Origin: Escherichia coli
Lineage (GTDB): Bacteria > Pseudomonadota > Gammaproteobacteria > Enterobacterales > Enterobacteriaceae
Reading direction: 5' to 3' (one strand)
Assembly: GCF_009931435.1 (NCBI RefSeq)
Contig: NZ_CP043414.1
Length of the DNA stretch: 64,000 nucleotides
Shown here: positions 37,610 to 51,398 of the stretch, one piece after another
Position numbering within the stretch: the stretch's first letter is position 1
Layout of the letters: the number at the start of each line of letters is the position of its first letter
Notes under the pieces: generated by a model
The model's database searches: none
What the model saw: only the letters and a program-made list of their open reading frames with translations
What the model was told of the DNA's origin: nothing
Position numbers and translations under genes: made by a program

Positions 37610-37700
37610 CATCCTCCATCGCCACGATAGTTCATGGCGATAGGTAGAATAGCAATGAACGATTATCCCTATCAAGCATTCTGACTGATAATTGCTCACA
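37610..37700. promoter_or_regulatory. oxyR-oxyS divergent promoter region with OxyR binding site
   Basis: GATAGGTAGAATAGCAATGAACGATTATCCCTATCAAGCATT (ATAG-n7-CTAT type repeats) followed by a TGATAAT -10 box just upstream of the oxyS start. Confidence 0.7.
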
Positions 37701-37809
37701 GAAACGGAGCGGCACCTCTTTAACCCTTGAAGTCACTGCCCGTTTCGAGAGTTTCTCAACTCGAATAACTAAAGCCAACGTGAACTTTTGCGGATCTCCA
37801 GGATCCGCT
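37701..37809 (+). ncRNA. oxyS: OxyS small regulatory RNA
   Basis: GAAACGGAGCGGCACCTCTTTAACCCTTGAAGTCACTGCCCGTTTCGAGAGTTTCTCAACTCGAATAACTAAAGCCAACGTGAACTTTTGCGGATCTCCAGGATCCGC followed by a T-run; matches oxyS; divergent from oxyR. Confidence 0.9.
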
Positions 37810-37855
37810 TTTTTTTATTCTACAGGCCCACAGCAAGAGAGCCTGATAGTAACAG

Positions 37856-39139
37856 TTACTCAATCCGATCTTTGACAATAAAGAAGTAACACAGCGCCCC
37901 GGTGAATGTCACACAGGCCGCGATAACCAGCGCCAGATTAAACGAGTGCGTGGTATCCACTACCCAACCGGTTACGATCGGAGCAAAGGAAGCAAAAACA
38001 AAACTGCCAAAGTTTTGAATCCCGGCGATGGAAGCCACTTTTGTTTCTGACACCATCACCTGCACCAGTCCCCATGCAGATGTTCCCGCGAAATGCACGC
38101 AGAACAGCGCCATTGAGATAAACGCTACAGCCTGGGCTGGCGAGGAGGATTGCACGACCAGCAACGTGCCTAATGCCGACATCATCAAACCGCAGACAAT
38201 AGCCGTTTTACGCGTCTTCGCCAGGTCGTAGCCTTTTTTCGCCAGCCGATCGACAACAATACCGTTAACCCACATCCCGACCGCCGCCGCGAGGAAAGGA
38301 ATCGCCGCCACCCAACCGGTTTTCGCCAGACTGAAGCCTTGCTCGGCTTGTAAATAACCGGGTAACCACGCGATGTAGAGCCAACCGGTATAATTGACGC
38401 CAGAGAAACCTAAAATCATCCCCCAGGTTGTCCGATGCTTAAACAGCGCCAGCCACTCGCTAAATTGTAATTGTGGACGCGGTTTAACCGGCGCGGAGAG
38501 ATAGGTCCGTTCTTCGTCGGTCAGGACAAACTGCGCCCGGTTGCGATACCACGCGTACCAACAGATCCCAACCAGAATCCCCGCCACGCCGATGATGACG
38601 AACATTGCCCGCCAGCCCCATGCCAGCTGCATCAATACAAGAGCAGGAGGCGCAATAGCCTGACCGATAACGGTAGATGAGTTAAAAATCCCCAGCGCCG
38701 TGCCGCGTTCTTTTTGCGCATACCAGTCGGTGATCGACTTTACTCCCGCAGGCATAAATGGCGCTTCGCCAATACCCAGACCGATACGCATTAAAATAAA
38801 GTGGCTAAAAGAATTAACCATTCCTGTTAATGCCTGCATTAATGACCAGAATATTAAGCCTGCGCCTAAAACTATTCGTGGGCCAAAGCGGTCTAGCAAA
38901 ATACCGGAAGGGAGTTGTGAAAAACCATAAGACAGAGAAAATGCAGAAAGCAAAACGCCAAATTCTGTCGCCGATAATCCTAACTCGCCACGAATCGCTT
39001 CGCCTGCCACGCTCAATGACGAACGGTCGAGGAAATTAACGATCCCCGCCATAAATAATAAAACCAGCGTTACTGTCTGAATACGACGAATCCGTTGCGG
39101 TTTATTACCCGCAACACTGGTTGACACATCAACGTCCAT
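37856..39139 (-). CDS. MFS transporter, anion:cation symporter (ACS) family; sugar-acid (DgoT/ExuT/GudP-like) permease
   Basis: 427 aa, 12 predicted hydrophobic segments; N-terminal LLFMAGIVNFLDRSSLSVAG and GLGIGEAPFMPA motifs typical of ACS-family hexuronate/aldonate transporters. Confidence 0.8.
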   Translation of the reverse strand: MDVDVSTSVAGNKPQRIRRIQTVTLVLLFMAGIVNFLDRSSLSVAGEAIRGELGLSATEFGVLLSAFSLSYGFSQLPSGILLDRFGPRIVLGAGLIFWSLMQALTGMVNSFSHFILMRIGLGIGEAPFMPAGVKSITDWYAQKERGTALGIFNSSTVIGQAIAPPALVLMQLAWGWRAMFVIIGVAGILVGICWYAWYRNRAQFVLTDEERTYLSAPVKPRPQLQFSEWLALFKHRTTWGMILGFSGVNYTGWLYIAWLPGYLQAEQGFSLAKTGWVAAIPFLAAAVGMWVNGIVVDRLAKKGYDLAKTRKTAIVCGLMMSALGTLLVVQSSSPAQAVAFISMALFCVHFAGTSAWGLVQVMVSETKVASIAGIQNFGSFVFASFAPIVTGWVVDTTHSFNLALVIAACVTFTGALCYFFIVKDRIE

Positions 39140-39205
39140 TTTTAGCTCCTTGAGCGGAATTAATCGATTTGCTGACTATTCAGAAAATAATTAAGCGAAC
39201 CGTTA

Positions 39206-40417
39206 TTACCAGTTCCACAATGTGCCATCTTCCAGTCGTGCGACGGGGAGATACGCCGGGTCATACGGATATTTCGCCGCCAGTTTCTCATCGAAAGAAA
39301 TACCCAGCCCCGGTTCATCGCCTGGGTGCATATAACCTTCATCGAAGCGCCAGCTGTGCGGGAAGACTTCAAGCATTTGTTCGGAATAGCCCATGTACTC
39401 CTGAACACCAAAGTTTGGCACCCAGAGGTCAAAATGCAGCGCCGCCGCATGACAAACAGGCGATAAATCTGAAGGGCCATGCGAACCGGTACGTACCTGA
39501 TAAAGCGATGCAAAATCGGCAATCCGTCGCATCCCGGTAATGCCGCCTGCATGGGTAATCGTCGTGCGAATATAGTCAATCAGCTGCTCTTCGATTAACT
39601 GCTTGCAGTCCCAGATACTGTTAAACACTTCACCGACCGCAATCGGCGTCACAGTATGCTGGCGAATCAGACGAAAACATTCCTGGTTCTCGGCAGGCGT
39701 CGGATCTTCCATCCACAACAGGCGGTAATCCTCAATGCTCTTCCCAAAGCGCGCCGCTTCGATAGGAGTCAGGCGATGGTGCATGTCATGCAACAGATGT
39801 TCGTTAAAACCGAACTTATTACGCACCGCTTCAAATAACTTCGGTGTAAAATCGAGATACTTTTCTGAAGACCACAACTGCTCTTCCGGCCACAGGCCTT
39901 TGGTTGCCGGTTCATACGCCAGTCCTTTGCCCTTCGCCAGGCCATAAGTGGTTTGCATACCCGGTACACCGCACTGCACACGAATCGCCTTAAAGCCCAT
40001 CTGCTGGTGCTTTGCATAGTCTTCAAGGACTTCATCAATCGTGCGCCCGGTGGTGTGGCAATAAACCATCACGCCTTCACGAGAAGCCCCACCAAGCAGT
40101 TGATACAATGGCATATTTGCCGCTTTGGCTTTGATATCCCACAACGCCATATCAATGGCAGAAATGGCCGACATCGTGACGGGGCCACGTCGCCAGTAAG
40201 CACCTTTATAAAAGAATTGCCAGATATCTTCGATACGGCTGGCATCGCGGCCAATTAATTGTGGACAAAGATGATCTTTCAGATAAGAAGCGACCGACAA
40301 TTCGCGACCATTTAATGTGGCATCTCCCAATCCACAAATTCCGCTTGCAGTGGTTATTTTAAGCGTAACGAAATTACGTCCTGGGCAAGTAACAAAAACA
40401 TCTGCAGCAATAATTTT
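39206..40417 (-). CDS. Enolase-superfamily dehydratase, D-mannonate dehydratase (ManD/RspA-like) subgroup
   Basis: Track ORF 39206..40480; homologous start [59 protein letters not shown]...; very similar to E. coli RspA as I recall it. Confidence 0.85.
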
Positions 40418-40768
40418 CATTATTGCAATCTCCTGTGTTGTAAATAGACGCTTCAAACTTAATTTTACGCCTACTACCATACAAGAGAGAAAGGGCGATT
40501 ATTCAACCGTGATCACATTAAAAATAAAAATTTCCGCCGAGGAACAAAAATATCCTCAAATCTCACCTACACTATTAACTACCATCGTTAAAACAACGTG
40601 TTAAATAATCACATAACAAATTCCTTTAAGGAAAGGAGTTATAACAACAACAAAAGATAATCATATTTTACTTAATTCAATACGTATCGATAGGTTTATT
40701 TAAAAAGGATTTTTCGGAATGAGAGATGAAAAGAAGATACACAAGCAGGAAGAAATACGATTAATATT

Positions 40769-40904
40769 AGTTGCGGTAAGGGTAGCCGTTCCTCCCTTCC
40801 GCAACCCATTAACCGTTGAAGTCACAGACTATTTCAGGCATTTCTCAACTCAAAATAACGACAGCCAACGTGAACTTTATGGCTCTCCAGGATCTGCTTT
40901 GTTT
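40769..40904 (+). ncRNA. oxyS-like element: diverged second copy (paralog or relic) of the OxyS sRNA
   Basis: AACCGTTGAAGTCACAGACTATTTCAGGCATTTCTCAACTCAAAATAACGACAGCCAACGTGAACTTTATGGCTCTCCAGGATCTGCTTTGTTTT aligns at about 80 percent identity by eye to oxyS 37722-37817; a 5' stem-loop and a TAATAT -10-like box sit upstream; terminator stem is degenerate. Confidence 0.5.
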
Positions 40905-40908
40905 TCCA

Positions 40909-42387
40909 TCAAACAACGGAGCTCAGCGCACTGGCTACCTGTTTAAAGCGAGCAAACCGTCGCCTGAGCATGTGTGCTTTTTCTACATTCGGTTCAAGAC
41001 GAATCACGTTGAGCTGCGTAGCCTTCATGGCCTGTTTGAATCCAGAATAAGCCCCTCCTCCTACTGCCGCACACATTGCAGCCGCTCTACAACCTGACTG
41101 TTCAATATCGACAATTTCAAGAGGCATTTTGCTGGCATCACAAAACATCTGCATCCAGATTCTGGAATGCGTTGGCCCGCCAGAGAAACGAATCGTTTGC
41201 AATGACTTATCAATCTCAATAAGACGGTCCTGATGCAACAAATGAGAAAAGACAACGCCCTGATAAATAGCGTACACCAAATCTTCTCTTTTATGATGCC
41301 CACACAGCCCCAAAAATCCCCCGCTTAATGCCTCATGGTAATTCGAGCCAAACAACCACGGGAAAAAGAGAATATCATTCTGTTTCTCATACCCTCGTTC
41401 CACCCACTCATTAATCACCCGATAACTGTCAGGAAGACCCGGTAAAAATTGCTGCAAGAACCATGTTAAATTACTGGCTGATGTAGGGCTTCCCTCATGG
41501 GCGAAAAATGTACCTGGAATGCTAAATTTCCCCCATACATAGGGATAATCAGAAGGAATAATGCGATCAAAGATTCGCGTTGCAATTGACCAGGTGCCAG
41601 CAACCGCACTTAACGTTGTACTGTCATAGATGCCAGAAGTGAGCGCCGCACCAACGACATCAAAAACACCACCAAAAACAGGCGTTCCGGCGAGAAGCCC
41701 ACATTGGCTGGCTGCTTCAGATGTCACAAACCCAGCTAAATCAGCGGAGCCAATAATATCGGGAACCTTACCCGCAACTTCCTTAATCTCAAATAGGCGA
41801 AAAAGTTCAGCATCATAAGCACTGGTATATTGATTATAAAAATTACTGCCTGAAATATTGGTTTCTTCACAAGCCAGTTTGCCAGTAAGCCGTGAACGTA
41901 TGTAATCATGAACCATCAAAATGGTTCCGATGCGGCCATAATTGTCAGTCTCATGTTTTTTCAACCAATGCAATAGTGCTACAGGGTGCGATGGCCAGAG
42001 CTGTTGCAGACTACGGTGATAACTTTCGCGGTCAATTCCTTGTTCTTTCCAGCTTGCAACCAGTTGTTGTGCGCGAGAATCAGAGGAAACAATGCCGTGT
42101 CGTAAGGGCTTACCTTGCCGGTCGAGCAGGTACAAACCTTTACCATGAGCAGAAAAACTGATGCCATCAATCTGACTCGCAGTAATATTGTTATCTGACA
42201 TCGACAGTGAAATGACCTGGCACGTTACCTTCCATAACGCCTCCATGTCGCGTTCGCAAAAACCAGGACATGGGCTTAACAGAGGTAACGCCTGCGAAGA
42301 GACACCTATTTCACGTCCTTCTGCCGTATAAATTCCCGCTTTGGTTTCTGTACCACCTAAATCGACACCAATAAAATACCGCTCCAT
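40909..42387 (-). CDS. FGGY-family carbohydrate kinase (L-xylulose/3-keto-L-gulonate kinase LyxK-like)
   Basis: 492 aa MERYFIGVDLGGTETKAGIY... with FGGY N- and C-terminal signatures (HDY..., SGGPTHSRIWMQM); family assignment confident, substrate not. Confidence 0.85.
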   Translation of the reverse strand: MERYFIGVDLGGTETKAGIYTAEGREIGVSSQALPLLSPCPGFCERDMEALWKVTCQVISLSMSDNNITASQIDGISFSAHGKGLYLLDRQGKPLRHGIVSSDSRAQQLVASWKEQGIDRESYHRSLQQLWPSHPVALLHWLKKHETDNYGRIGTILMVHDYIRSRLTGKLACEETNISGSNFYNQYTSAYDAELFRLFEIKEVAGKVPDIIGSADLAGFVTSEAASQCGLLAGTPVFGGVFDVVGAALTSGIYDSTTLSAVAGTWSIATRIFDRIIPSDYPYVWGKFSIPGTFFAHEGSPTSASNLTWFLQQFLPGLPDSYRVINEWVERGYEKQNDILFFPWLFGSNYHEALSGGFLGLCGHHKREDLVYAIYQGVVFSHLLHQDRLIEIDKSLQTIRFSGGPTHSRIWMQMFCDASKMPLEIVDIEQSGCRAAAMCAAVGGGAYSGFKQAMKATQLNVIRLEPNVEKAHMLRRRFARFKQVASALSSVV

Positions 42388-42403
42388 GATCCCTCCTTAG
42401 TTT

Positions 42404-43267
42404 CTAAATATTATCCCAGCCGGCAAGGCGCATTTTCTCTTCAATCCATTGACGTGCATGAATAATTTCTAATAGAGGTTCCGTCGCTTTTTCTGTCCAC
42501 ATTTCTATCAGAAACGTTCCGCGATAATTAAGATTACGCAGGATCTTAAATAATTTAATAAAATCTACACACCCTTCACCAAAAGGAACGTCACGAAATT
42601 GCCCTGGAGAATCAGGCGTTACTGGGTACGTATCTTTAAGATGGATTGCGGCAATTCGATCAATCCCCTTTACCAGCTCACTTTCCAGTTCATTACCCCA
42701 TGCGGTCAGATTGCCAACATCCGGATAAACGGTAAACCAAGGGGAATTAATTTTTGTATCCAGGACTTTCCATTTACTAATAGAATTAATAAATGGCGTA
42801 TCCATGATCTCTACAGCACACATAACTTGTGCCGCTGCGGCCTGTTCAGCTGTCCAGGCCATCGCATCTTCAAACCAGGCGATAGTTTCTTCATTCTGCG
42901 GCTCATAATAAACGTCATAGCCTGCCAGTTGGATTGTTCGAATCCCCAAATCCTGCGCCAGGCGTAACGCCTTCAACATAATCGTACGTGCCTGCTGACG
43001 AGTATCTCTATCATGGCTACCAAATGGAAAACGCCGGTGAGCAGACAGGCACATTGTCGGAATACGGATCCCCGTTTGCTGAATGGCGCTAATAAGCTCC
43101 ATACGCTCGGTGAGCGACCAGTCCAGGCGGGCGAGTCGTTCATCATTCTCATCTACCGACATCTCAACAAAATCAAAACCGCAAGATTTAGCCAGGGCTA
43201 GTTTCTCTACCCAACTGGTATTCCTGGGTAGCGCTTTTTCATAAATACCTAACGGGTGGCGTCGCAT
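42404..43267 (-). CDS. Sugar-phosphate 3-epimerase of the xylose-isomerase-like TIM-barrel family (L-ribulose-5-phosphate 3-epimerase SgbU/UlaE-like)
   Basis: 287 aa MRRHPLGIYEKALPRNTSWVEKLALAKSCGFDFVEMSVDENDERLARLDWS...IRTIQLAGYDVYYE...HLKDT...FLIEMW; close resemblance to SgbU/UlaE as I recall them. Confidence 0.8.
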   Translation of the reverse strand: MRRHPLGIYEKALPRNTSWVEKLALAKSCGFDFVEMSVDENDERLARLDWSLTERMELISAIQQTGIRIPTMCLSAHRRFPFGSHDRDTRQQARTIMLKALRLAQDLGIRTIQLAGYDVYYEPQNEETIAWFEDAMAWTAEQAAAAQVMCAVEIMDTPFINSISKWKVLDTKINSPWFTVYPDVGNLTAWGNELESELVKGIDRIAAIHLKDTYPVTPDSPGQFRDVPFGEGCVDFIKLFKILRNLNYRGTFLIEMWTEKATEPLLEIIHARQWIEEKMRLAGWDNI

Positions 43268-44343
43268 TATTTTCCCTCACGAGTGATCAATTGTTGTTGA
43301 AAGATTTTCCGGCTCTTATTCATGTCACGCTGCAACTGCCATTTTTGTTTGATGAATTTAAATGCCAGTGCGGCGATCAATGTGATCCCCCATACCGCCA
43401 GATTGAAATGCAAACTAAGTCCCAACAGACTAAGGCCGGTAGCAATAACCTGAAGCACAAGTAAGGCACAAAAAACATGACTGACTTTACCCGCCCCACC
43501 GAATGGATCTGTGCCTCCCAATACAATTGCAAGAACCGTCAAGAGCAGATAGGAATCGCCATAGCCCATACGCGCCGAATTAAATCGCGCGAGCATAATA
43601 AGACCTGCTAATACACACAACATGCTGGATATAGCATATATAGCAATTAATACGCGGTCGGTGCGAATACCGCTAAACCATGTGGCGTTAATATTACTGC
43701 CACACATATAAATCGTTTTTCCCGTACGGGTTTTGCCGAGGAACAGAGCTAAAGCAACGGTGGTGACGATAAAAATTATCATCGGTACTGGGATCCCCAT
43801 GATAACTTCAGACCCAATACTGCGGACTACTGGTGGCATACCACTTAAAGCTGCCCCCTTAGTCAGGTAAATACCGATACCACTAATAATGGTCATGCTA
43901 CCCAATGTGACCAAAATAGGGTGAGCGCCTATATGAGAAATAATTGACCCAGTAATAGCTCCAATGATGATGGCAATAAGCATCGCCCCGACAATAGCCA
44001 GGAAGAGCCAAAACAACTGACTACCTGTAGATGCATCTGCGGGTACATATTGAATCAACAGCCAGGCCATAAACAGGCTGGTCAGATTCGCAGTACCGAT
44101 GATTGCCAGATTGAGCCCCCCGCTCAACATGGGTATAAACATCGCAAACGTGAGCAACCCAAGCTCTGGCAATTGAAATGCAATGCTCAGAAAAGTATTG
44201 CCGGTGAAAAAACGCCCCGGCATTACCAGACTAAATAACACCACCGCAATAAAACATATTGATAATAAGCCTGAACTGGTACCATCTAGTGGAAAAAATA
44301 TCCGCTTGTTCATTTCGATCCTCCCGTTAGACGAAACCAACAT
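43267..44343 (-). CDS. ABC transporter permease (CUT2, RbsC/LsrD-like)
   Basis: 358 aa polytopic membrane protein; stop/start overlaps neighbours within the ABC operon. Confidence 0.8.
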   Translation of the reverse strand: MLVSSNGRIEMNKRIFFPLDGTSSGLLSICFIAVVLFSLVMPGRFFTGNTFLSIAFQLPELGLLTFAMFIPMLSGGLNLAIIGTANLTSLFMAWLLIQYVPADASTGSQLFWLFLAIVGAMLIAIIIGAITGSIISHIGAHPILVTLGSMTIISGIGIYLTKGAALSGMPPVVRSIGSEVIMGIPVPMIIFIVTTVALALFLGKTRTGKTIYMCGSNINATWFSGIRTDRVLIAIYAISSMLCVLAGLIMLARFNSARMGYGDSYLLLTVLAIVLGGTDPFGGAGKVSHVFCALLVLQVIATGLSLLGLSLHFNLAVWGITLIAALAFKFIKQKWQLQRDMNKSRKIFQQQLITREGK

Positions 44344-45319
44344 CAGTTTCTTTACGTTTTTTGTAATGGGTCACACAAATCGCCGAGACAATAACCACTC
44401 CAATAACGATATTGACGAAATAACTCGAGATGCCAATCAAATTAAGGCCGTTTTTAAGAATACCGATAAGAAATACGCCCATAAGCGTACCAATGACCGT
44501 ACCACGTCCGCCTGATAAACTGGCACCGCCCAATACCGCTGCAGCCAGCACATCCAACTCTCCGCCAACCAATGCATTCGGCACAACTTCACTCATACGA
44601 TAAGCTTGCAGCATTCCACCAATTGCTGCAGCGGCACCAAGATAACCATAAGCAAACAGATAAATTAGCGACACCCGAATCCCAATACGTCTTGCTGATT
44701 CGGTATTCCCTCCCACGGCATAAAGCTGACGCCCAATATGGGTTTTGTTCATTATCATCCACGTCAGAAATGCCATTCCCAGCATAACCACTAACGGTAA
44801 TCCGATCTGGTAATCTTCTCCGCCAAATTCAAAACTCAGGAAAGAACGCTGCGTAATCCACCAATCCGGTAAATCGTAAATACTGTGGCCATTAGTCAAC
44901 CACATCAACATACCGAACAGTAGCGACTGCATACTAATCGTAATGATGATGGAAACGACATTAAGGTAATAAATAAGAATAGCGTTTATCAAACCAAAAA
45001 TGATGCCAAGAAAAACAGCAAACACCAGACAGAAAAATGGATTTGATAGCGTTTCATTAAGCAGTAACGACGCCACAACATATTGCACAACCGAAGCTAC
45101 TGCTGCAAAAGAGATATCAATTCCGCCAGTAACCAATACGACAAATAATCCGAGGGCGAAAATACCCGTTACGGCATAACTTTCCGAGAGATCGAGCAAG
45201 TTCTGTATTGATAAAAACTCATCGCTCATGATGGAAAAAAATACCAGCATGAGAACAATGACCCATCCTAACCAAGCTTCGACTGAACGAGGAAACCGCA
45301 GCCGCATAAAGCTAACCAT
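44327..45319 (-). CDS. ABC transporter permease (CUT2, RbsC/LsrC-like)
   Basis: 330 aa polytopic membrane protein with GGIDISFAAV and GGxSLxGGRGT motifs typical of ribose-type permeases. Confidence 0.8.
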   Translation of the reverse strand: MVSFMRLRFPRSVEAWLGWVIVLMLVFFSIMSDEFLSIQNLLDLSESYAVTGIFALGLFVVLVTGGIDISFAAVASVVQYVVASLLLNETLSNPFFCLVFAVFLGIIFGLINAILIYYLNVVSIIITISMQSLLFGMLMWLTNGHSIYDLPDWWITQRSFLSFEFGGEDYQIGLPLVVMLGMAFLTWMIMNKTHIGRQLYAVGGNTESARRIGIRVSLIYLFAYGYLGAAAAIGGMLQAYRMSEVVPNALVGGELDVLAAAVLGGASLSGGRGTVIGTLMGVFLIGILKNGLNLIGISSYFVNIVIGVVIVSAICVTHYKKRKETDVGFV

Positions 45320-46829
45320 TAATCACCTCCGCCAACTGCTGCTCGGTATAATTCGAAGGCAACAGCTCATTAATAATCTTTCCGCGCTTCATATGAAAAA
45401 TACGATCGCAGTTATAATAAGCTTCTGGTGCTTCATCAGTAATTAATATCACTGAAATACCCACACCTGAAAGCCGATGAATAAGCTGGTAAATACTATC
45501 TTTTGCGCCAATATCTACACCTACCGTTGGCGCATCCAGAATTAAAACCTTAGGTCGTGTTAAAATCCATTTAGCCAGGACAACCTTTTGTTGATTGCCG
45601 CCAGATAGCGTTGAAAGTGGATTATTTGGATCGGTGACTTTAATATCCAAATCCTGGATCCACTCCTTGACTAAGGTTTCTTTTCGATTTTCATCAATAA
45701 ACCCCGATGCCGTCTTTAAACGATCCAGAATCGAGAGCACCATATTATCGCTGATAGATTGGGGTAATACGGCCCCCAGTGTCAGGCGATCTTCTGAAAC
45801 ATATGCTATTCCCAGTTTTACCGCATGCGTGTTGTCTTTAATTGTAACGGGCTTACCTTCCAGATAAATATCACCACTATCTGGTCGAGTAATACCGAAA
45901 AGACTCAATGCTAATTCAGTTCTCCCCGCACCAAGTAAACCACACAATCCCAGAACCTCGCCCTGGTGTAGTTTTAGAGAAACATCTTCAAATTGCCCTT
46001 TTCTGCATAATTTGTTTAGTTCAAGGACTACTTTGCCTTCAACGCTATTTGGTAGCTTCTTCTGGTGGACTATAGTTTTTCCGGTCATTAACTCAGTAAT
46101 ATCGCCCGGAGAAAGTTGATTGGCAGCCCACGTTCCAATTATCTCTCCATCACGGATGACCGTAATCCGATCTGAAATTTCCTTAACTTCATCAAGGCGG
46201 TGGCTAACAAAAACTACGGTAATATTTTTATCGCGTAAGTAATTCACTGTGCGTAGTAATTGATTAACTTCTGTACGCGTCAATGATGCCGTTGGCTCGT
46301 CCATGATGACTAACCGGGCATCGGCAATCAGAGCCCGGCAAATCGCGACCTGTTGGCGTTGTGCAATCGGCAAATGTTGTACTAACGCATCAGGATCGAG
46401 ATTGAATTGCAGCTCCTGAATTATTTTCTGCGATACATCTCGAAGTTGTTTTTTTCTGTGCAGCCCTAAATATCCCTTCAGGTTGTATTCAAAAGCGATA
46501 TTTTCAGCAACAGAAAGATTTGGGAATAAAGAAAGATCCTGATATATCACCTGAATACCCAGTTCCCGAGCTTTATCAGGAGAAAGACGAGTCCAGGACT
46601 TACCATCTATAATAATTTCACTTCCCGAATCAGGGACATAAACACCACACAGCGTTTTGATCAGAGTACTTTTACCACACCCATTCGCACCAGCAAGACA
46701 ATGAACCTCACCTTTATTTAAGGTAAGATTGATATTCTTTAGAGCCCTATGGCCACCGAAACTTTTCGTTAGTGACCTTAGCGTCACTAATGGTTGCTCC
46801 GCATTCTTCTCTATAATATGAGGCATCAT
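45312..46829 (-). CDS. Sugar ABC transporter ATP-binding protein with duplicated ABC domains (RbsA/LsrA-like)
   Basis: 505 aa; first Walker A GANGCGKST, LSGGNQQK-type signature, second degenerate P-loop GLLGAGRTE as in CUT2 ATPases. Confidence 0.85.
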   Translation of the reverse strand: MMPHIIEKNAEQPLVTLRSLTKSFGGHRALKNINLTLNKGEVHCLAGANGCGKSTLIKTLCGVYVPDSGSEIIIDGKSWTRLSPDKARELGIQVIYQDLSLFPNLSVAENIAFEYNLKGYLGLHRKKQLRDVSQKIIQELQFNLDPDALVQHLPIAQRQQVAICRALIADARLVIMDEPTASLTRTEVNQLLRTVNYLRDKNITVVFVSHRLDEVKEISDRITVIRDGEIIGTWAANQLSPGDITELMTGKTIVHQKKLPNSVEGKVVLELNKLCRKGQFEDVSLKLHQGEVLGLCGLLGAGRTELALSLFGITRPDSGDIYLEGKPVTIKDNTHAVKLGIAYVSEDRLTLGAVLPQSISDNMVLSILDRLKTASGFIDENRKETLVKEWIQDLDIKVTDPNNPLSTLSGGNQQKVVLAKWILTRPKVLILDAPTVGVDIGAKDSIYQLIHRLSGVGISVILITDEAPEAYYNCDRIFHMKRGKIINELLPSNYTEQQLAEVING

Positions 46830-46892
46830 AATATTCCTGAATACGACTAAAGGAATTCCGGGTCAAATTTGACCCGGTGATTTACGGTAAAA

Positions 46893-47897
46893 TTACAAGC
46901 CTAGCTTCACTAAACGTCGTGTATTTTCAAGATCGAGCTTTTCTGGATTATCACTATAAATAGTGTTGTTATTAACCTTGATCTCGCCCATATCACCGAT
47001 TTTTACACCGTCTTTAATAGGTTCACCGTTCATCATTGCCGTCGCAACCTGGACAAAAACCTTACCCGCAATCATAGGGTTTGAAATATATCCCCCATCA
47101 ATGGCACCTTTTTCGAGTAGCTTAATTCCCTGACCTGGAGTGAAGGTTCCAAAAACGCAAATTGCATCATTTTTCTTCCGCTTATCAATAGCACGCCCCG
47201 CACCAATTGGTCCTTGTGAACCAAATGACATAATGCCTTTAAGATCTTTATATTTAGACATTAAATCGTTCGTCGTGCGCATTGAATCATCCACCGACTC
47301 AGCAACACCAAAACGATCTTCAACCAACGTCATATTTGGATAATGTTCTTTTTGATAGGCAATCGCGGCATTGGCCCAGTCATTTACCAAAGGCACAGTC
47401 AGACTGCCGACAAACATGGCGTATTTACCTTCTTCGCCCATACACTTCGCCATATCTTTCATATGATTGGCACCCATTGTCTGGGTATTTAACAACTCAA
47501 AATCCCAATCTGCATTTTTTTGATCTGGTGATTCGTGGGTAATAACTTTAATACCGGCTTCTTGTGCACGCTTAAGTACAGGTTCAAGAACCTTTGCATC
47601 GTTAGGAACAACACCAATAACATCCACTTTTCGTGCAATTAAATCTTCAATCGCCCGAACCTGTTCAGCTGGATCTGCCGTTGTAGGGCCGACCTGCCAT
47701 GCATCAACCCCCAATAGTTTTCCTTCATTTTTAATGCCTTGTTCCATCACATTAAACCAGGGAATTCCACCGACTTTTACTACTACCCCCATCGTAAAAG
47801 GTTTATTCGCTTTTTGTGATGTTACAGTCTGATCAGCCCATGCAGCAGTGGAAGATAATACGGTAGCAATAAGGCAGGGTAAGATTAATTTTTTCAT
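46893..47897 (-). CDS. Periplasmic sugar-binding protein (PBP type I, LsrB/RbsB-like) with signal peptide
   Basis: 334 aa MKKLILPCLIATVLSSTAAWA (signal peptide) followed by a two-lobe sugar-binding fold pattern. Confidence 0.8.
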   Translation of the reverse strand: MKKLILPCLIATVLSSTAAWADQTVTSQKANKPFTMGVVVKVGGIPWFNVMEQGIKNEGKLLGVDAWQVGPTTADPAEQVRAIEDLIARKVDVIGVVPNDAKVLEPVLKRAQEAGIKVITHESPDQKNADWDFELLNTQTMGANHMKDMAKCMGEEGKYAMFVGSLTVPLVNDWANAAIAYQKEHYPNMTLVEDRFGVAESVDDSMRTTNDLMSKYKDLKGIMSFGSQGPIGAGRAIDKRKKNDAICVFGTFTPGQGIKLLEKGAIDGGYISNPMIAGKVFVQVATAMMNGEPIKDGVKIGDMGEIKVNNNTIYSDNPEKLDLENTRRLVKLGL

Positions 47898-48019
47898 CGT
47901 AATTTCCTTAAGAAATAGTTCAGGTGTCAGGAAAACTCGATATAATATCGACCTGACTATTTATATAATTTATAATCCCTTAGGCATTGATTAATAATTT
48001 AGACAATAAATAACGCCTA

Positions 48020-48829
48020 TTATTTATCAACCTCCACAATGTTTAATTGTGGAAATTGTGTTCGATACCGAGTATCTGTACAAACATTAGTCACCAGAAT
48101 ATCGATTTCATCCAGCGTGCATATTTTACTAAATGCATACTGTTCAAACTTAGTGGAGTCGACCAGCAATATTTTTTGTCCTGACACCTGAAGCATCACC
48201 TGTTTAAGTCTGGCATTAATTTCACTGCCATCGCGGACACCATTCCCCAGATTCAACCCCTGGCATGAAAAGAAAAAACTGTTGATTTGAAAATTTCGGA
48301 TCGCACTCTCTGCAACCGGGCCATGAAAATCATCATGTCGCTCAGAATACTCACCACCGATACCAATAATTCGAACTCGATCACGGCAAGCTAACGCCTG
48401 AATTATCCGTAATGAATTTGTAACTACGGTAACATCTATATCGGGAATTTGACGAGCTAAAAACCAACAAGTACTACTGTTATCCATTAAAATACAATCA
48501 CCAGGGTGAATAAATTGCAATGCGGCCTTCGCAATTCTGGCTTTTATATCAGGATTTTCTTCAGTCCGTTTACGGAATGATTCCGCACGATCGATACTAT
48601 TATCTTGCCACGCATTATCGGCGAGCATAACCGGAGCGCTATCAGATGAATCCAGAGCGACCGCGCCACCAAAGCTACGGATTAACTTTTTGTTGCGCTC
48701 CAGTACCGTTAAATCCCGACGAATTGTCTCAGGAGACGCTTTAAATAATCGTGATAATTCAGTTACCCGCACAGCACCTTGTTTTTGTACATGTGCGCAT
48801 ATCATTTTATGGCGCTCTGCCTGCAACAT
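48020..48829 (-). CDS. DeoR/GlpR-family transcriptional regulator
   Basis: 269 aa; N-terminal HTH (VTELSRLFKASPETIRRDLTVLE) and C-terminal DeoR sugar-phosphate-binding domain; first gene of the minus-strand operon. Confidence 0.85.
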   Translation of the reverse strand: MLQAERHKMICAHVQKQGAVRVTELSRLFKASPETIRRDLTVLERNKKLIRSFGGAVALDSSDSAPVMLADNAWQDNSIDRAESFRKRTEENPDIKARIAKAALQFIHPGDCILMDNSSTCWFLARQIPDIDVTVVTNSLRIIQALACRDRVRIIGIGGEYSERHDDFHGPVAESAIRNFQINSFFFSCQGLNLGNGVRDGSEINARLKQVMLQVSGQKILLVDSTKFEQYAFSKICTLDEIDILVTNVCTDTRYRTQFPQLNIVEVDK

Positions 48830-49282
48830 AGTATCGGTCCGTTATTATCAAATTAGCATGCTTATATAATTAACTGTTCCCTCATAAAATAAAGTGATAG
48901 GAATCAAGATTCATTTTATAATTATAATCGCAAACAGGAATGGTGATCTTTATCACAAATTAAATTGAGAACACTCTACTATTTGACATTACTTTGAGAT
49001 ATCGGTCACTAAATAAGTCTTATTCTGCCATCTAACGAAAAATTTAAATACAAAAACAAAAATAATCGGGCATAGCAATCGCTTCCATTCATGACCGAAT
49101 ACGCCCGAATAAAACCGTTTATACCCACTTATCCTCTTTCGTTGCCTTCTTACATGCCTTGAATATTTTACATTTCTTATATTCAGCGTAATTTAGGAAA
49201 CATAATTTATGAGCAAAAAAAGCCCAAACTCAAAAGTTAAAGTTTATTTATATAATACATACAGATTATCGTGGAGTTAAAA

Positions 49283-49975
49283 ATGGATATGCTAAAGGAA
49301 AAAGTTCTTGCTGCGAATTTATCATTACCCCTTCATCAGTTAGTGACGTTTACCTGGGGAAATGTTAGTGGTGTTGATCGCGAAAAAGGTGTCATGGTTA
49401 TTAAACCTTCTGGGGTCGAATACAGCCAAATGGGCATTGCAGATATGGTGGTAGTGGATTTACAAAGTGGTGAAGTTATTGATGGACACAGGAAACCCTC
49501 TTCAGACACCGATACTCATCTGGCGCTATACCGTGCTTTCCCGGATATTGGTGGTATCGTTCATACCCATTCCCGACACGCCACAATATGGGCTCAGGCC
49601 GGAAAAGATCTCACGGCCTTTGGGACAACCCACGCTGATTATTTCTACGGCACTATCCCCTGTACACGCCCCATGAAGGATGACGAAATTAATGGACAAT
49701 ATGAATATGAAACGGGGCGAGTGATTATTGAAACGTTCAGACAACGAGAAATATCTCCCGCTGACATTCCGGCTGTTTTAGTAAACAGTCATGGCCCCTT
49801 TGCCTGGGGAACTGATCCCGCGAACGCCGTGCATAACGCCGTTGTACTTGAAGAAATTGCCTATATGAATCTCTTTACACAACAACTACAGCCCCATCTT
49901 ACGGCTATTCAACAGCCTCTACTGGATAAGCATTTTTTACGCAAGCATGGTGCCAATGCTTATTACGGGCAGTAA
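49283..49975 (+). CDS. L-ribulose-5-phosphate 4-epimerase (class II aldolase fold; AraD/SgbE/UlaF paralog)
   Basis: Track ORF 49271..49975; about three-quarters identical by eye to AraD ([31 protein letters not shown]...[14 protein letters not shown]...HGPFAWG...[18 protein letters not shown]); start chosen by alignment, alternative ATGs at 49271 and 49289. Confidence 0.85.
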
Positions 49976-50024
49976 CCCTCTTAGCATGGCCTGGCGTTTT
50001 GCCAAGCCATAAATCGCCTAAGAC

Positions 50025-51398
50025 TTACTCCAACCGCGCCTGCGCAAAAGCAATCGCCTGCGCCACCTGCTGCGGTGAGACGCCGCCTTTTGCCGCACGC
50101 TTGTCGAGGCACGATTGCAGCGACAGAATCGGATAGACATCTTCGCCAATCACCTGACTGAATTTCTGCAACTCACTGAGCGGCAGATCTTCCAGCGGTT
50201 TGCCCTGACGAATGGCTTCCACCACCGCTTCACCAACAATATGGTGCGCCTCGCGGAACGGCACACCTTTCGCCACCAGGTAATCCGCCAGTTCAGTGGC
50301 GTTCGCATACCCCTGCTGCGCCGCTTCCTGGCAACGTGGGCGTTTCACCTGAATGCCGTCCAGCACCAGCGCCGCCATATGCAGGCAGTCCAGCCAGGTA
50401 TCGAGCGCGTCGAATAAGCCCTCTTTGTCTTCCTGCATATCTTTGTTGTAAGCCAGCGGCAAACCTTTCAGCGTCATCATCATGCCAGTCAACGCGCCCT
50501 GAACACGACCGCATTTACCCCGAATCAGCTCCAGCGCATCCGGGTTTTTCTTCTGCGGCATTAATGATGAACCGGAAGTCACGCGATCAGAAAGCTCCAC
50601 AAAACCCGCTTCGCCGGTGTTAAAGAAAATCAGATCTTCGGCAAAACGCGACAAATGCACCATACCGATAGCGGCGGCAGAAAGCAGTTCCAGCACGTGG
50701 TCGCGGTCAGAAACGCTGTCGAGACTGTTACGGGTCGCCGAGGCAAAGCCCAGCCAGCCTGCTAACTGTTCACGGTCGATTTCATAAGCCGTTCCCGCCA
50801 GTGCGCCACAGCCTAACGGGCTGACATCCAGACGCTTAAGCGCATCCTGCAAACGACTTTCATCACGCGCCAGCATCTCAACATAGGCCAGGCACCAGTG
50901 CGCGAACGTCACCGGCTGGGCGCGTTGCAGGTGAGTGTAACCAGGCATTACCGCGTCCTGATTATTCTGCGCGGTCTCGACCAGAGCGGATTGTAACTGT
51001 CGGTTAGCCGTCAGTAACTCGCTAACGGTATCTTTGCACCACAGTTTCAGGTCAGTCGCTACCTGATCATTACGGCTACGCCCGGTGTGCAGTTTTTTGC
51101 CTAACTGGCCCACTTTGTCGATCAGTTTGCCTTCTACCCAGCTATGGATATCTTCAGCGTCGCTTTCAAGAATTTGTTGTGGTCTGGCGCGAACATCTTC
51201 CAGCAGCACATTGAGCGCCTCTTCCAGTTGCACCTGTTCTTCTGCGGTTAACACGCCTACCGTTACCAGCGCTTTGGACCAGGCCACAGAGCCAACAATA
51301 TCCTGCTCCGCCAGACGGTAATCAAAGCGCAGTGAGTCGTTGAATTGTTTAAACCGTTGATCTGCTGCCTGGGTAAAACGCCCGCCCCAAAGTGCCAT
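50025..51398 (-). CDS. argH: Argininosuccinate lyase
   Basis: 457 aa [45 protein letters not shown]... Confidence 0.97.

What the first reader, a model, noticed from the sequence alone, without database searches (positions are those of the whole stretch)
37856..40417. Second RspA/ManD-like dehydratase paired with a sugar-acid MFS transporter
The dehydratase is highly similar to E. coli RspA, which belongs to the low-efficiency D-mannonate / D-gluconate dehydratase subgroup of the enolase superfamily whose physiological roles are poorly resolved. Here it is co-operonic with an ACS-family aldonate/hexuronate-type MFS permease rather than with rspB, suggesting uptake and dehydration of an aldonic acid. 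Its adjacency to the pentulose module raises the possibility of one combined pathway for an unusual acid sugar.
Basis: partly seen in the sequence, partly recalled or inferred. Interest (0 to 1): 0.65.

Follow-up and report, generated by a model that had tools for sequence, protein, structure and literature searches.

The report
Extra mannonate dehydratase with aldonate transporter
This is an old, well-conserved two-gene E. coli operon, an extra copy of the RspA/ManD sugar-acid dehydratase plus an uncharacterised acid-sugar transporter, that most likely imports D-mannonate and feeds it into central metabolism; it is not part of the neighbouring pentulose genes.

Summary
Window 37856-39139 (-) encodes a 427-aa ACS-type MFS permease. 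The dehydratase is 91% identical to E. coli RspA and keeps all catalytic residues.

- **Second copy:** the pair occurs in 1860 of 5426 complete E. coli genomes, and native rspA in 5381. The window's closest relatives also carry rspB.
- **Location and age:** the pair lies between argH and oxyS. Its dS tracks that of oxyR, and dN/dS is 0.01-0.08.
- **Pentulose idea not supported:** that 9.6-kb, low-GC module accompanies the pair in only 146 genomes.
- **Link to the rsp cluster:** in other Enterobacteriaceae the transporter's ortholog sits inside the rsp cluster. The island promoter keeps the 15-mer that overlaps the published RspR footprint.
- **Substrate clue:** the sister branch of the transporter (~70% identity) forms a self-contained regulator-MFS-UxuA cassette in seven genera. 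LgoT is 56% identical.

I therefore predict D-mannonate uptake plus dehydration to 2-keto-3-deoxy-gluconate. This is a new member of a known kind, of moderate interest.

The parts
39206..40420 (-). manD: second, RspA-like D-mannonate dehydratase (ManD subgroup, enolase superfamily), 404 aa
   Evidence: ORF. NCBIfam NF043051 scores 728.5 bits against a 550 cut-off. It is 91.1% identical to native RspA and keeps R147, Y159, D212, H214, E238, E264 and H314. dN/dS is 0.02-0.08.
37856..39139 (-). ACS-family MFS anion:H+ symporter, 427 aa; predicted D-mannonate (aldonate) importer
   Evidence: Best NCBIfam model is TIGR00893. It is 32.8% identical to DgoT, with D38/R39/R118/E125 aligned to DgoT D46/R47/R126/E133, and 56% identical to LgoT. 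Orthologs lie inside rsp clusters. The sister branch pairs with UxuA. dN/dS is 0.01-0.03.
39140..39205 (-). 66-nt manD-MFS spacer with an AAGGAG ribosome-binding site; no strong terminator, so co-transcription is inferred
   Evidence: Sequence. Only a weak hairpin overlapping the manD stop codon appears in the terminator scan.
40471..40485 (-). CTTGTATGGTAGTAG: rsp-regulon promoter/operator core. It holds a -35-like TTGTAT and the right half, GTAT, of the published RspR-box ATACnnGTAT.
   Evidence: Identical 15-mer at the native rspA promoter. It is conserved upstream of rspA, of the MFS gene and of ydfI in the sampled Enterobacteriaceae genera. It is the only match in the 64-kb window. RspR footprint and repression are described in PMC8249747.
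40510..40517 (-). TGTGATCA: conserved CRP-type half-site about 33 nt upstream of the -35 element
   Evidence: A similar TGTGA-type element lies at the same distance in the native rspA promoter and in most rsp-regulon promoters of other genera. A CRP site at rspAp is mentioned in bioRxiv 10.1101/2025.05.13.653802. CRP binding here is inferred.
40456..40461 (-). TAAGTT: candidate -10 hexamer, 17 nt after TTGTAT
   Evidence: By position, it matches the native promoter, whose start site was mapped 30 nt before the ATG, and the TAA(A/G)TT seen at the same place in other genera. Inferred; not detected by the consensus promoter scan.
37817..37855 (.). Junction of the islet with the core genome on the oxyS side: similarity to K-12 ends at 37816 and the MFS stop codon is at 37856
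   Evidence: blastn against K-12 shows that 37817-50024 replaces 53 nt of K-12. oxyS lies at 37701-37809 (+).

Best explanation
The two genes form a self-contained accessory operon for using an external aldonic acid, most likely D-mannonate. The MFS protein is an anion:H+ symporter that brings the acid sugar in. ManD removes water from D-mannonate to give 2-keto-3-deoxy-D-gluconate. The core enzymes KdgK and Eda then convert that product to pyruvate and glyceraldehyde-3-phosphate (established pathway knowledge). The operon is an old duplicate piece of the enterobacterial rsp cluster. It keeps an rsp-type promoter, so it is probably repressed by RspR (encoded at the native rsp locus) and activated by CRP. 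What is shown: gene identities, intact catalytic and proton-coupling residues, status as a second copy, independence from the pentulose module, purifying selection, promoter conservation, and the recurrent transporter-mannonate dehydratase association. What is inferred: the transported substrate, co-transcription, RspR/CRP control and real flux in vivo. I put about 0.85 on 'aldonate uptake plus dehydration to a 2-keto-3-deoxy acid' and about 0.45-0.5 on D-mannonate specifically.
For: Enzyme:
- It passes the ManD equivalog model.
- It is 91% identical to RspA (4IL2) and keeps the Arg147/Tyr159 dyad, His214 and the metal ligands Asp212/Glu238/Glu264.

Transporter:
- It is ACS-type, with the DgoT Asp46/Arg47/Arg126/Glu133 equivalents conserved.
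- Its closest characterised relative is the L-galactonate symporter LgoT, at 56%.

Association:
- In 15 of 19 enterobacterial loci the ortholog lies next to or near a full or partial ManD/RspA gene, usually inside rspA-rspB-ydfJ-ydfI...rspR clusters.
- Its sister clade (65-71% identity) forms a GntR/FCD regulator-MFS-UxuA cassette in Rouxiella, Rahnella, Pectobacterium, Leminorella, Klebsiella michiganensis, Providencia and Affinibrenneria. The flanks differ in every case.
- UxuA is the unrelated canonical D-mannonate dehydratase, so the same transporter type is coupled twice, independently, to mannonate dehydration and to nothing else.
- The transporter survives alone behind the same promoter in Citrobacter sp. 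R56, where manD is reduced to a 63-codon remnant, and in Shimwellia.

Selection and age:
- dN/dS is 0.02-0.08 for manD and 0.01-0.03 for the MFS gene, and all sampled ORFs are intact.
- dS tracks the neighbouring oxyR gene, both within E. coli and against E. whittamii.

Regulation:
- The 15-mer CTTGTATGGTAGTAG and an upstream TGTGATCA are shared with the native rspA promoter and with rsp-regulon promoters across the sampled genera.
- RspR footprints that region and represses rspA (PMC8249747).
Against: - No experiment bears on this copy or on this transporter.
- From my own recollection of Wichelecki et al. 2014 (papers not held in the library), the 91%-identical RspA of CFT073 dehydrates D-mannonate only with low efficiency, and no physiological role was found for it. 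The true substrate could therefore be an untested acid sugar.
- E. coli already has UxuA.
- The island promoter lacks the left half (ATAC) of the published RspR-box: it reads TCTCttGTAT. RspR control is therefore not assured.
- The UxuA-linked transporters are only about 70% identical, so their specificity could differ.
- In full rsp clusters the transporter also sits with RspB and YdfI, which fits L-gulonate equally well.
Confidence: 0.5

Rival explanations
1. The transporter imports L-gulonate (or a similar L-aldonate). The native RspB (5-dehydrogenase) and YdfI (fructuronate/mannonate oxidoreductase) convert it to D-mannonate. The island ManD then supplies extra dehydratase capacity. On this reading the islet is an add-on to the native rsp pathway, not a stand-alone module.
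For: In most Enterobacteriaceae the transporter lies inside clusters with rspB, ydfI and rspR. Its nearest characterised relative, LgoT, carries an L-aldonate that a Zn-dehydrogenase oxidises at C5 (the Providencia L-galactonate-type module is). The shared promoter core suggests co-regulation with native rspAB. The L-gulonate route through RspB/RspD/RspA in CFT073 is my recollection of Wichelecki et al. 2014.
Against: The E. coli islet and the seven UxuA cassettes contain no dehydrogenase. The native E. coli rsp locus already has its own transporter, YdfJ. Only mannonate dehydratases recur next to the transporter in the minimal cassettes.
Confidence: 0.2
2. The pair acts on a different acid sugar that is not yet identified. 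D-mannonate dehydration by RspA-type enzymes is a weak side activity.
For: Low in vitro efficiency of RspA-type ManDs (own knowledge, not verified here). The island enzyme forms its own clade, with 36 substitutions relative to RspA, five of them in the 150-180s loop (I152V, K156Q, M161L, S162A, Q176L).
Against: The catalytic residues and most of the loop are unchanged. The sister transporters pair with UxuA, which I know only as a D-mannonate dehydratase (own knowledge).
Confidence: 0.17
3. The pair is a cryptic evolutionary relic with no present function.
For: The islet is missing from about two thirds of complete E. coli genomes. Some copies are interrupted by IS elements (rows H10 and H14). 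manD is deleted in Citrobacter sp. R56. No role was found for native RspA (own knowledge).
Against: Strong purifying selection on both genes, over divergence as deep as E. coli versus E. whittamii (dN/dS 0.01-0.08); intact ORFs in every sampled lineage; conserved promoter.
Confidence: 0.08
4. One reading: manD-MFS and the adjacent pentulose genes (ABC transporter, FGGY kinase, L-ribulose-5-P 3- and 4-epimerases) form one pathway for an unusual acid sugar.
For: They are physically adjacent in the window and in 146 genomes.
Against: About 1700 genomes carry the pair without the module. GC content differs (0.50 against 0.43). The module has a separate DeoR regulator and the pair a separate promoter. 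The ManD product, a 2-keto-3-deoxy-hexonate, does not feed a pentulose-phosphate route (pathway knowledge). The module appears to have arrived with its own degenerate oxyS copy and a divergent argH.
Confidence: 0.03

Closest known systems
RspA of E. coli (starvation-sensing protein; ManD subgroup of the enolase superfamily; PDB 4IL2)
   Same: 404 aa with no indels, 91.1% identical, all catalytic and metal-binding residues the same, and the same promoter core 51 nt before the ATG.
   Different: It sits at a different locus (argH/oxyS, not ynfA-rspA-rspB). It is only 81% identical at the DNA level, with saturated dS of about 1.75, and forms a separate clade. It is followed by an ACS-type MFS gene, where native rspA is followed by rspB-ydfJ-ydfI. 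The left half of the RspR-box is not kept.
Full rsp clusters of Enterobacter, Klebsiella, Raoultella, Lelliottia and Siccibacter (rspA, this MFS, rspB, ydfJ, ydfI, rspR)
   Same: They contain the same transporter ortholog (82-92% identity) and ManD (91-94%). Lelliottia and Siccibacter have the same manD-MFS gene order. The same promoter motif precedes each transcription unit.
   Different: The E. coli islet holds only two of the six genes and lies far from rspR. E. coli's own rsp locus lacks this transporter.
Regulator-MFS-UxuA cassette of Yersiniaceae, Pectobacteriaceae, Morganellaceae and related families
   Same: A sister-clade transporter (65-71% identity) is directly coupled to a D-mannonate dehydratase in a minimal, portable unit.
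   Different: The dehydratase is UxuA (PF03786), which is unrelated in fold to ManD. The cassette has its own divergent FadR-type regulator, only 28% identical to RspR.
LgoT (YjjL), the L-galactonate:H+ symporter, and DgoT, the D-galactonate:H+ symporter, of E. coli
   Same: Same ACS family of MFS anion:proton symporters; 56% identity to LgoT and 33% to DgoT; the charged residues that I recall as coupling and carboxylate-binding in DgoT (own knowledge, not verified here) are conserved.
   Different: It falls outside the LgoT clade and has a different genomic partner: a dehydratase, where LgoT sits with the LgoD dehydrogenase and DgoT with the dgo operon. Its substrate is untested.

Membership tests
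ManD subgroup of the enolase superfamily (NCBIfam NF043051, D-mannonate dehydratase ManD) | Whole-protein score above the curated equivalog cut-off | tested here: met
   728.5 bits against a cut-off of 550, aligned end to end.
ManD subgroup of the enolase superfamily (NCBIfam NF043051, D-mannonate dehydratase ManD) | Three carboxylate metal ligands (Asp, Glu, Glu) at the ends of barrel strands 3-5 | tested here: met
   D212, E238 and E264 sit in the HDMHH, WMEDP and VGEVF motifs. They are identical in RspA (4IL2), Pectobacterium ManD (4E4F) and Chromohalobacter ManD (3OW1). Their assignment as ligands rests on my knowledge of the Novosphingobium ManD work (D210/E236/E262).
ManD subgroup of the enolase superfamily (NCBIfam NF043051, D-mannonate dehydratase ManD) | Tyr-Arg general-base dyad in the 150-180s loop, and a His general acid two residues after the first ligand | tested here: met
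   R147, Y159 and H214 are present. The loop differs from RspA at five non-catalytic positions.
ManD subgroup of the enolase superfamily (NCBIfam NF043051, D-mannonate dehydratase ManD) | Dehydration of D-mannonate (or D-gluconate) to 2-keto-3-deoxy-D-gluconate | not testable with these tools
   Needs an enzyme assay. No assay of this copy was found.
RspA ortholog (native starvation-sensing protein) | Position in the ynfA-rspA-rspB locus and near-identity to K-12 RspA | tested here: not met
   It lies between argH and oxyS, is 81% identical to rspA at the DNA level and forms a separate clade. Native rspA is present as well in nearly all genomes. It is a paralog, not the ortholog.
ACS family (TC 2.A.1.14) MFS organic-anion:H+ symporters | Match to the family model (TIGR00893) | tested here: inconclusive
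   It is the best-scoring model, at 275 bits over residues 31-422, but falls below the curated cut-off of 395.
ACS family (TC 2.A.1.14) MFS organic-anion:H+ symporters | Conserved Asp/Arg in TM1 and Arg/Glu in TM4 (DgoT D46, R47, R126, E133) | tested here: met
   D38, R39, R118 and E125 align with them. Their roles are from my knowledge of the DgoT structure paper.
ACS family (TC 2.A.1.14) MFS organic-anion:H+ symporters | Transport of a sugar acid with protons | not testable with these tools
   Needs uptake assays.
RspR (YdfH) regulon | RspR-box ATACnnGTAT inside the footprinted 31 bp overlapping the -35 region | tested here: inconclusive
   The island reads TCTCttGTATGGTAGTAG. The right half and the following GGTAGTAG are identical to native rspA; the left half is not kept. 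Promoters of the MFS and ydfI genes in other genera show the same pattern (xTTCttGTATGG).
Single pathway with the adjacent pentulose module | Consistent co-occurrence and shared regulation of the two gene sets | tested here: not met
   146 genomes carry the module against 1860 carrying the pair; composition, regulator and promoter all differ.

The most novel reading that the evidence does not exclude
This MFS clade would be the first dedicated D-mannonate:H+ symporter. The minimal transporter-dehydratase cassettes (ManD-MFS in Escherichia, MFS-UxuA in seven other genera) would be a stand-alone route for scavenging external D-mannonate. That would give the RspA-type 'low-efficiency' ManDs the physiological role that earlier enzymology could not find.
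Probability: 0.4. Interest if true: 0.55.

Novelty: new member of a known kind. Interest (0 to 1): 0.38.

Why it matters
As I recall the enzymology literature, RspA-type ManDs have a known in vitro reaction but no known physiological role. This locus offers a clean natural test case. It is a two-gene unit under strong purifying selection, present in about a third of E. coli, including the extraintestinal pathogenic strains UPEC 536 and APEC O1, and absent from K-12. Its transporter has relatives that are repeatedly wired to mannonate dehydration. If the prediction holds, it names a new transporter specificity. It would also explain why a second ManD is kept, and it would add one carbon source to the metabolic differences between E. 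coli lineages. If it fails, the pair is still an ordinary accessory sugar-acid operon.

Tried and rejected
- **Wichelecki/Gerlt ManD papers.** I tried to read them by DOI and by three PMC ids, and none is held. Statements about catalytic efficiency and the L-gulonate pathway are therefore from memory.
- **Literature on this islet.** Searches found nothing.
- **Consensus promoter scan.** It did not flag the manD promoter. The promoter was found by comparison with native rspA and other genera.
- **Distant transporter relatives.** Cluster representatives at 51-56% identity lie in unrelated neighbourhoods and say nothing about substrate. The 42-43% hits in Allorhizobium and Bryobacteraceae have no ManD, UxuA, RspB or YdfI nearby.
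- **Plasmid origin.** The only 'plasmid' hits are mislabelled chromosomes or chromosome fragments.
- **Recent horizontal acquisition of the pair.** Rejected, because its dS matches that of flanking oxyR.
- **Combined pentulose pathway.** Rejected on distribution.
- **Structure prediction.** I did not run it, because a 91%-identical crystal structure exists.
Full report
**1. What is there**

The window is E. coli chromosome around fabR-sthA-oxyR...argH.

- On the minus strand, 37856-39139 encodes a 427-aa MFS protein.
- 39206-40420 encodes a 404-aa enolase-superfamily dehydratase.
PGAP annotates the same 1215-nt gene as 'manD' in near-identical genomes.
- The two genes are 66 nt apart. An AAGGAG ribosome-binding site precedes the MFS start codon, and there is no convincing terminator between them. 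Co-transcription is therefore likely, but it is inferred.

**2. The dehydratase**

- It scores 728.5 bits on the NCBIfam equivalog 'D-mannonate dehydratase ManD' (cut-off 550).
- Its best solved relatives are RspA of E. coli CFT073 (4IL2) and the Pectobacterium ManD (4E4F), followed by the Chromohalobacter and Novosphingobium ManDs.
- Against native RspA (UPEC 536) it has 36 differences in 404 residues and no indels.
- R147, Y159, D212, H214, E238, E264 and H314 are all unchanged. Five substitutions fall in the 150-180s loop, none at a catalytic position.
- The roles of these residues, and the classification of RspA as a low-efficiency ManD, come from my own knowledge of the Rakus 2007 and Wichelecki 2014 papers. 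I could not open those papers here.

**3. Is it a second copy?**

Yes.

- This gene is in 1860 of 5426 complete E. coli genomes at >=95% identity. It matches native rspA at only about 81% DNA identity.
- Native rspA is in 5381 of 5426 genomes at >=95%.
- A chimeric probe (FGGY kinase from the window plus native rspB) hit two separate places in the window's closest relatives, including NZ_CM148325.1.
- The native locus in UPEC 536 reads rspA-rspB-ydfJ-ydfI-ydfZ-rspR and has no ACS-type MFS gene.
- dS between the two copies is about 1.75, which is saturated. In a protein tree the island copies form their own clade.

**4. Where it sits and how old it is**

- Compared with K-12, window 37817-50024 replaces 53 nt between the 3' end of oxyS and the argH stop codon.
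- oxyS is at 37701-37809 (+).
- The usual form in E. coli is argH, about 500 nt, manD, MFS, oxyS, oxyR (APEC O1 and strain 00-3076).
- The same arrangement occurs in E. whittamii and in unnamed Escherichia species. Citrobacter sp. R56 has it too, but there manD is reduced to an in-frame remnant of about 63 codons while the MFS gene and promoter remain intact.
- dS for manD and the MFS gene tracks that of oxyR:
  - window versus APEC O1: manD 0.09, MFS 0.11, oxyR 0.08
  - window versus E. whittamii: manD 0.38, MFS 0.27, oxyR 0.30
- The pair has therefore lived at this site since before these species split. Its absence from K-12-like lineages looks like loss.
- dN/dS is 0.02-0.08 for manD and 0.01-0.03 for the MFS gene, similar to native rspA at 0.046. 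All sampled ORFs are intact.

**5. The pentulose neighbour is a separate unit**

- Genes 40909-49975 encode an FGGY kinase, an L-ribulose-5-P 3-epimerase, two ABC permeases, an ATPase, a binding protein, a DeoR regulator and a divergent AraD-like 4-epimerase. This is an L-xylulose-type pentulose route.
- The module covers >=80% of its length in only 146 genomes. The other roughly 1700 pair-bearing genomes share only the first 140-294 nt upstream of manD.
- Its GC content is 0.43, against 0.50 for the pair.
- It is bounded on the manD side by a degenerate oxyS-like copy (40776-40898). That copy scores 30 bits on the Rfam OxyS model, against a gathering score of 75, and matches oxyS at 88 of 109 positions. 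The common islet form lacks this copy.
- On the other side, argH is unusually divergent (dS 0.21-0.24 against other E. coli, versus 0.08 for oxyR).
- The simplest reading is that the module was imported by recombination from a relative in which it also lay between argH and oxyS.
- Nothing links it functionally to manD-MFS.

**6. Link to the rsp regulon**

A scan of one genome per species with the MFS protein returned 19 enterobacterial loci.

- In Enterobacter, Pluralibacter, Klebsiella, Raoultella, Lelliottia, Siccibacter, Atlantibacter and Citrobacter, the ortholog (82-92% identity) lies inside or beside clusters with rspA, rspB, ydfJ, ydfI and rspR.
- Lelliottia and Siccibacter have the same manD-MFS order as E. 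coli.
- The island promoter carries CTTGTATGGTAGTAG 51 nt before the ATG, identical to the native rspA promoter.
- With at most two mismatches, this 15-mer precedes rspA, the MFS gene (where it has its own promoter) and ydfI in the sampled Enterobacteriaceae genera.
- A TGTGATC-type CRP half-site sits about 33 nt further upstream.
- The 12-mer core occurs once in the 64-kb window; 0.19 matches are expected by chance at up to one mismatch.
- Shimada et al. 2021 footprinted RspR on 31 bp of the rspA promoter centred on ATACnnGTAT. They showed repression and mapped the start site 30 nt before the ATG (PMC8249747).
- The island keeps the right half-site and the flanking GGTAGTAG but has TCTC in place of ATAC. 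The MFS and ydfI promoters of other genera are of the same type. RspR control is therefore plausible but unproven.

**7. What the transporter carries**

- It is 32.8% identical to DgoT, and D38/R39/R118/E125 align with DgoT D46/R47/R126/E133.
- The closest characterised relative is LgoT, the L-galactonate symporter, at 56%.
- The most informative result is the sister clade (65-71% identical to the E. coli protein, and separate from LgoT). In Rouxiella, Rahnella (megaplasmid), Pectobacterium zantedeschiae, Leminorella, Klebsiella michiganensis (between transposases), Providencia stuartii and Affinibrenneria it forms a three-gene cassette.
- That cassette consists of a divergent GntR/FCD regulator, the MFS gene and UxuA. 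The flanks are unrelated from genome to genome.
- UxuA is the canonical D-mannonate dehydratase and is unrelated in fold to ManD.
- A transporter joined to a mannonate dehydratase and nothing else, in two independent enzyme versions, points to D-mannonate as the imported compound.
- The product, 2-keto-3-deoxy-gluconate, is handled by the core enzymes KdgK and Eda (established pathway knowledge).
- L-gulonate import, with help from native RspB and YdfI, remains a serious alternative because of the full-cluster context.

**8. Comparison with what is known, and verdict**

- The enzyme is a member of the ManD subgroup: every sequence-level feature I could test is met, and activity is untested.
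- It is a paralog, not the ortholog, of RspA.
- The permease is an ACS-type symporter of untested specificity.
- No paper on this islet was found.
- The finding is real. The combined-pathway idea is not supported.
- The added value lies in three results: the independence and age of the pair, its derivation from the rsp cluster with the regulon promoter retained, and a specific, testable substrate prediction.
- It is a new member of a known kind, of moderate interest.

Noticed in passing
window 40776-40898 (+): A degenerate second copy of the oxyS sRNA gene lies between the FGGY kinase stop codon and the manD promoter. It matches oxyS at 88 of 109 positions, has a broken terminator stem, and scores 30 bits on the Rfam OxyS model against a gathering score of 75. 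It is absent from the common islet form, which has REP-like sequence there. It probably marks how the pentulose module was recombined in.
   Followed up: partly
window 40909-49975: A low-GC (0.43) L-xylulose-type pentulose module: DeoR regulator, sugar ABC transporter, L-ribulose-5-P 3-epimerase, FGGY kinase and a divergent AraD-like 4-epimerase. It is present in only 146 of 5426 complete E. coli genomes. Its substrate is unknown.
   Followed up: partly
window 50025-51398 (argH): argH in the window is much more divergent from other E. coli (dS 0.21-0.24) than oxyR on the other side of the island (dS 0.08). This suggests an imported recombination tract that came with the pentulose module.
   Followed up: partly
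window 37690-37870 (- strand): No intrinsic terminator is predicted after the MFS stop codon. The gene ends 46 nt from the oxyS terminator, converges on oxyS and runs in the same direction as oxyR. In K-12, argH has a clear hairpin plus T-tract at this spot. Transcription of the operon could read through antisense to oxyS and into oxyR.
   Followed up: partly
L023 8694-8882 (Citrobacter sp. R56): At the same argH/oxyR site, manD is reduced to an in-frame remnant of about 63 codons (N-terminus fused to C-terminus). The rsp-type promoter and the MFS gene stay intact, so the transporter is kept on its own.
   Followed up: yes
L010 243-1457 and 7712-8926 (Enterobacter sp. kpr-6): This locus holds two near-identical ManD genes, each with a full ATACTTGTATGGTAGTAG promoter. 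The second is followed by the MFS gene, which makes it a possible model for how the manD-MFS pair arose.
   Followed up: no
L012 15533, L017 12820, L018 14193, L011 18577 (ydfI promoters): ydfI promoters in other genera carry TTGTATGG(T/C)AGTTGAT followed about 20 nt later by CATACCAA, an inverted partner. The operator of this regulon may therefore be larger than, or different from, the published ATACnnGTAT box.
   Followed up: no
L013 (record titled Chryseobacterium sp. 18061): This contig carries a typical Enterobacteriaceae rsp cluster nearly identical to that of 'Citrobacter sp. 18056' from the same study. The record is probably mislabelled or contaminated.
   Followed up: no
L005 14444-16969 (APEC O1): APEC O1 has an extra pair of genes (M20 aminoacylase and citrate-proton symporter) between sthA and fabR. 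The window lacks them.
   Followed up: no
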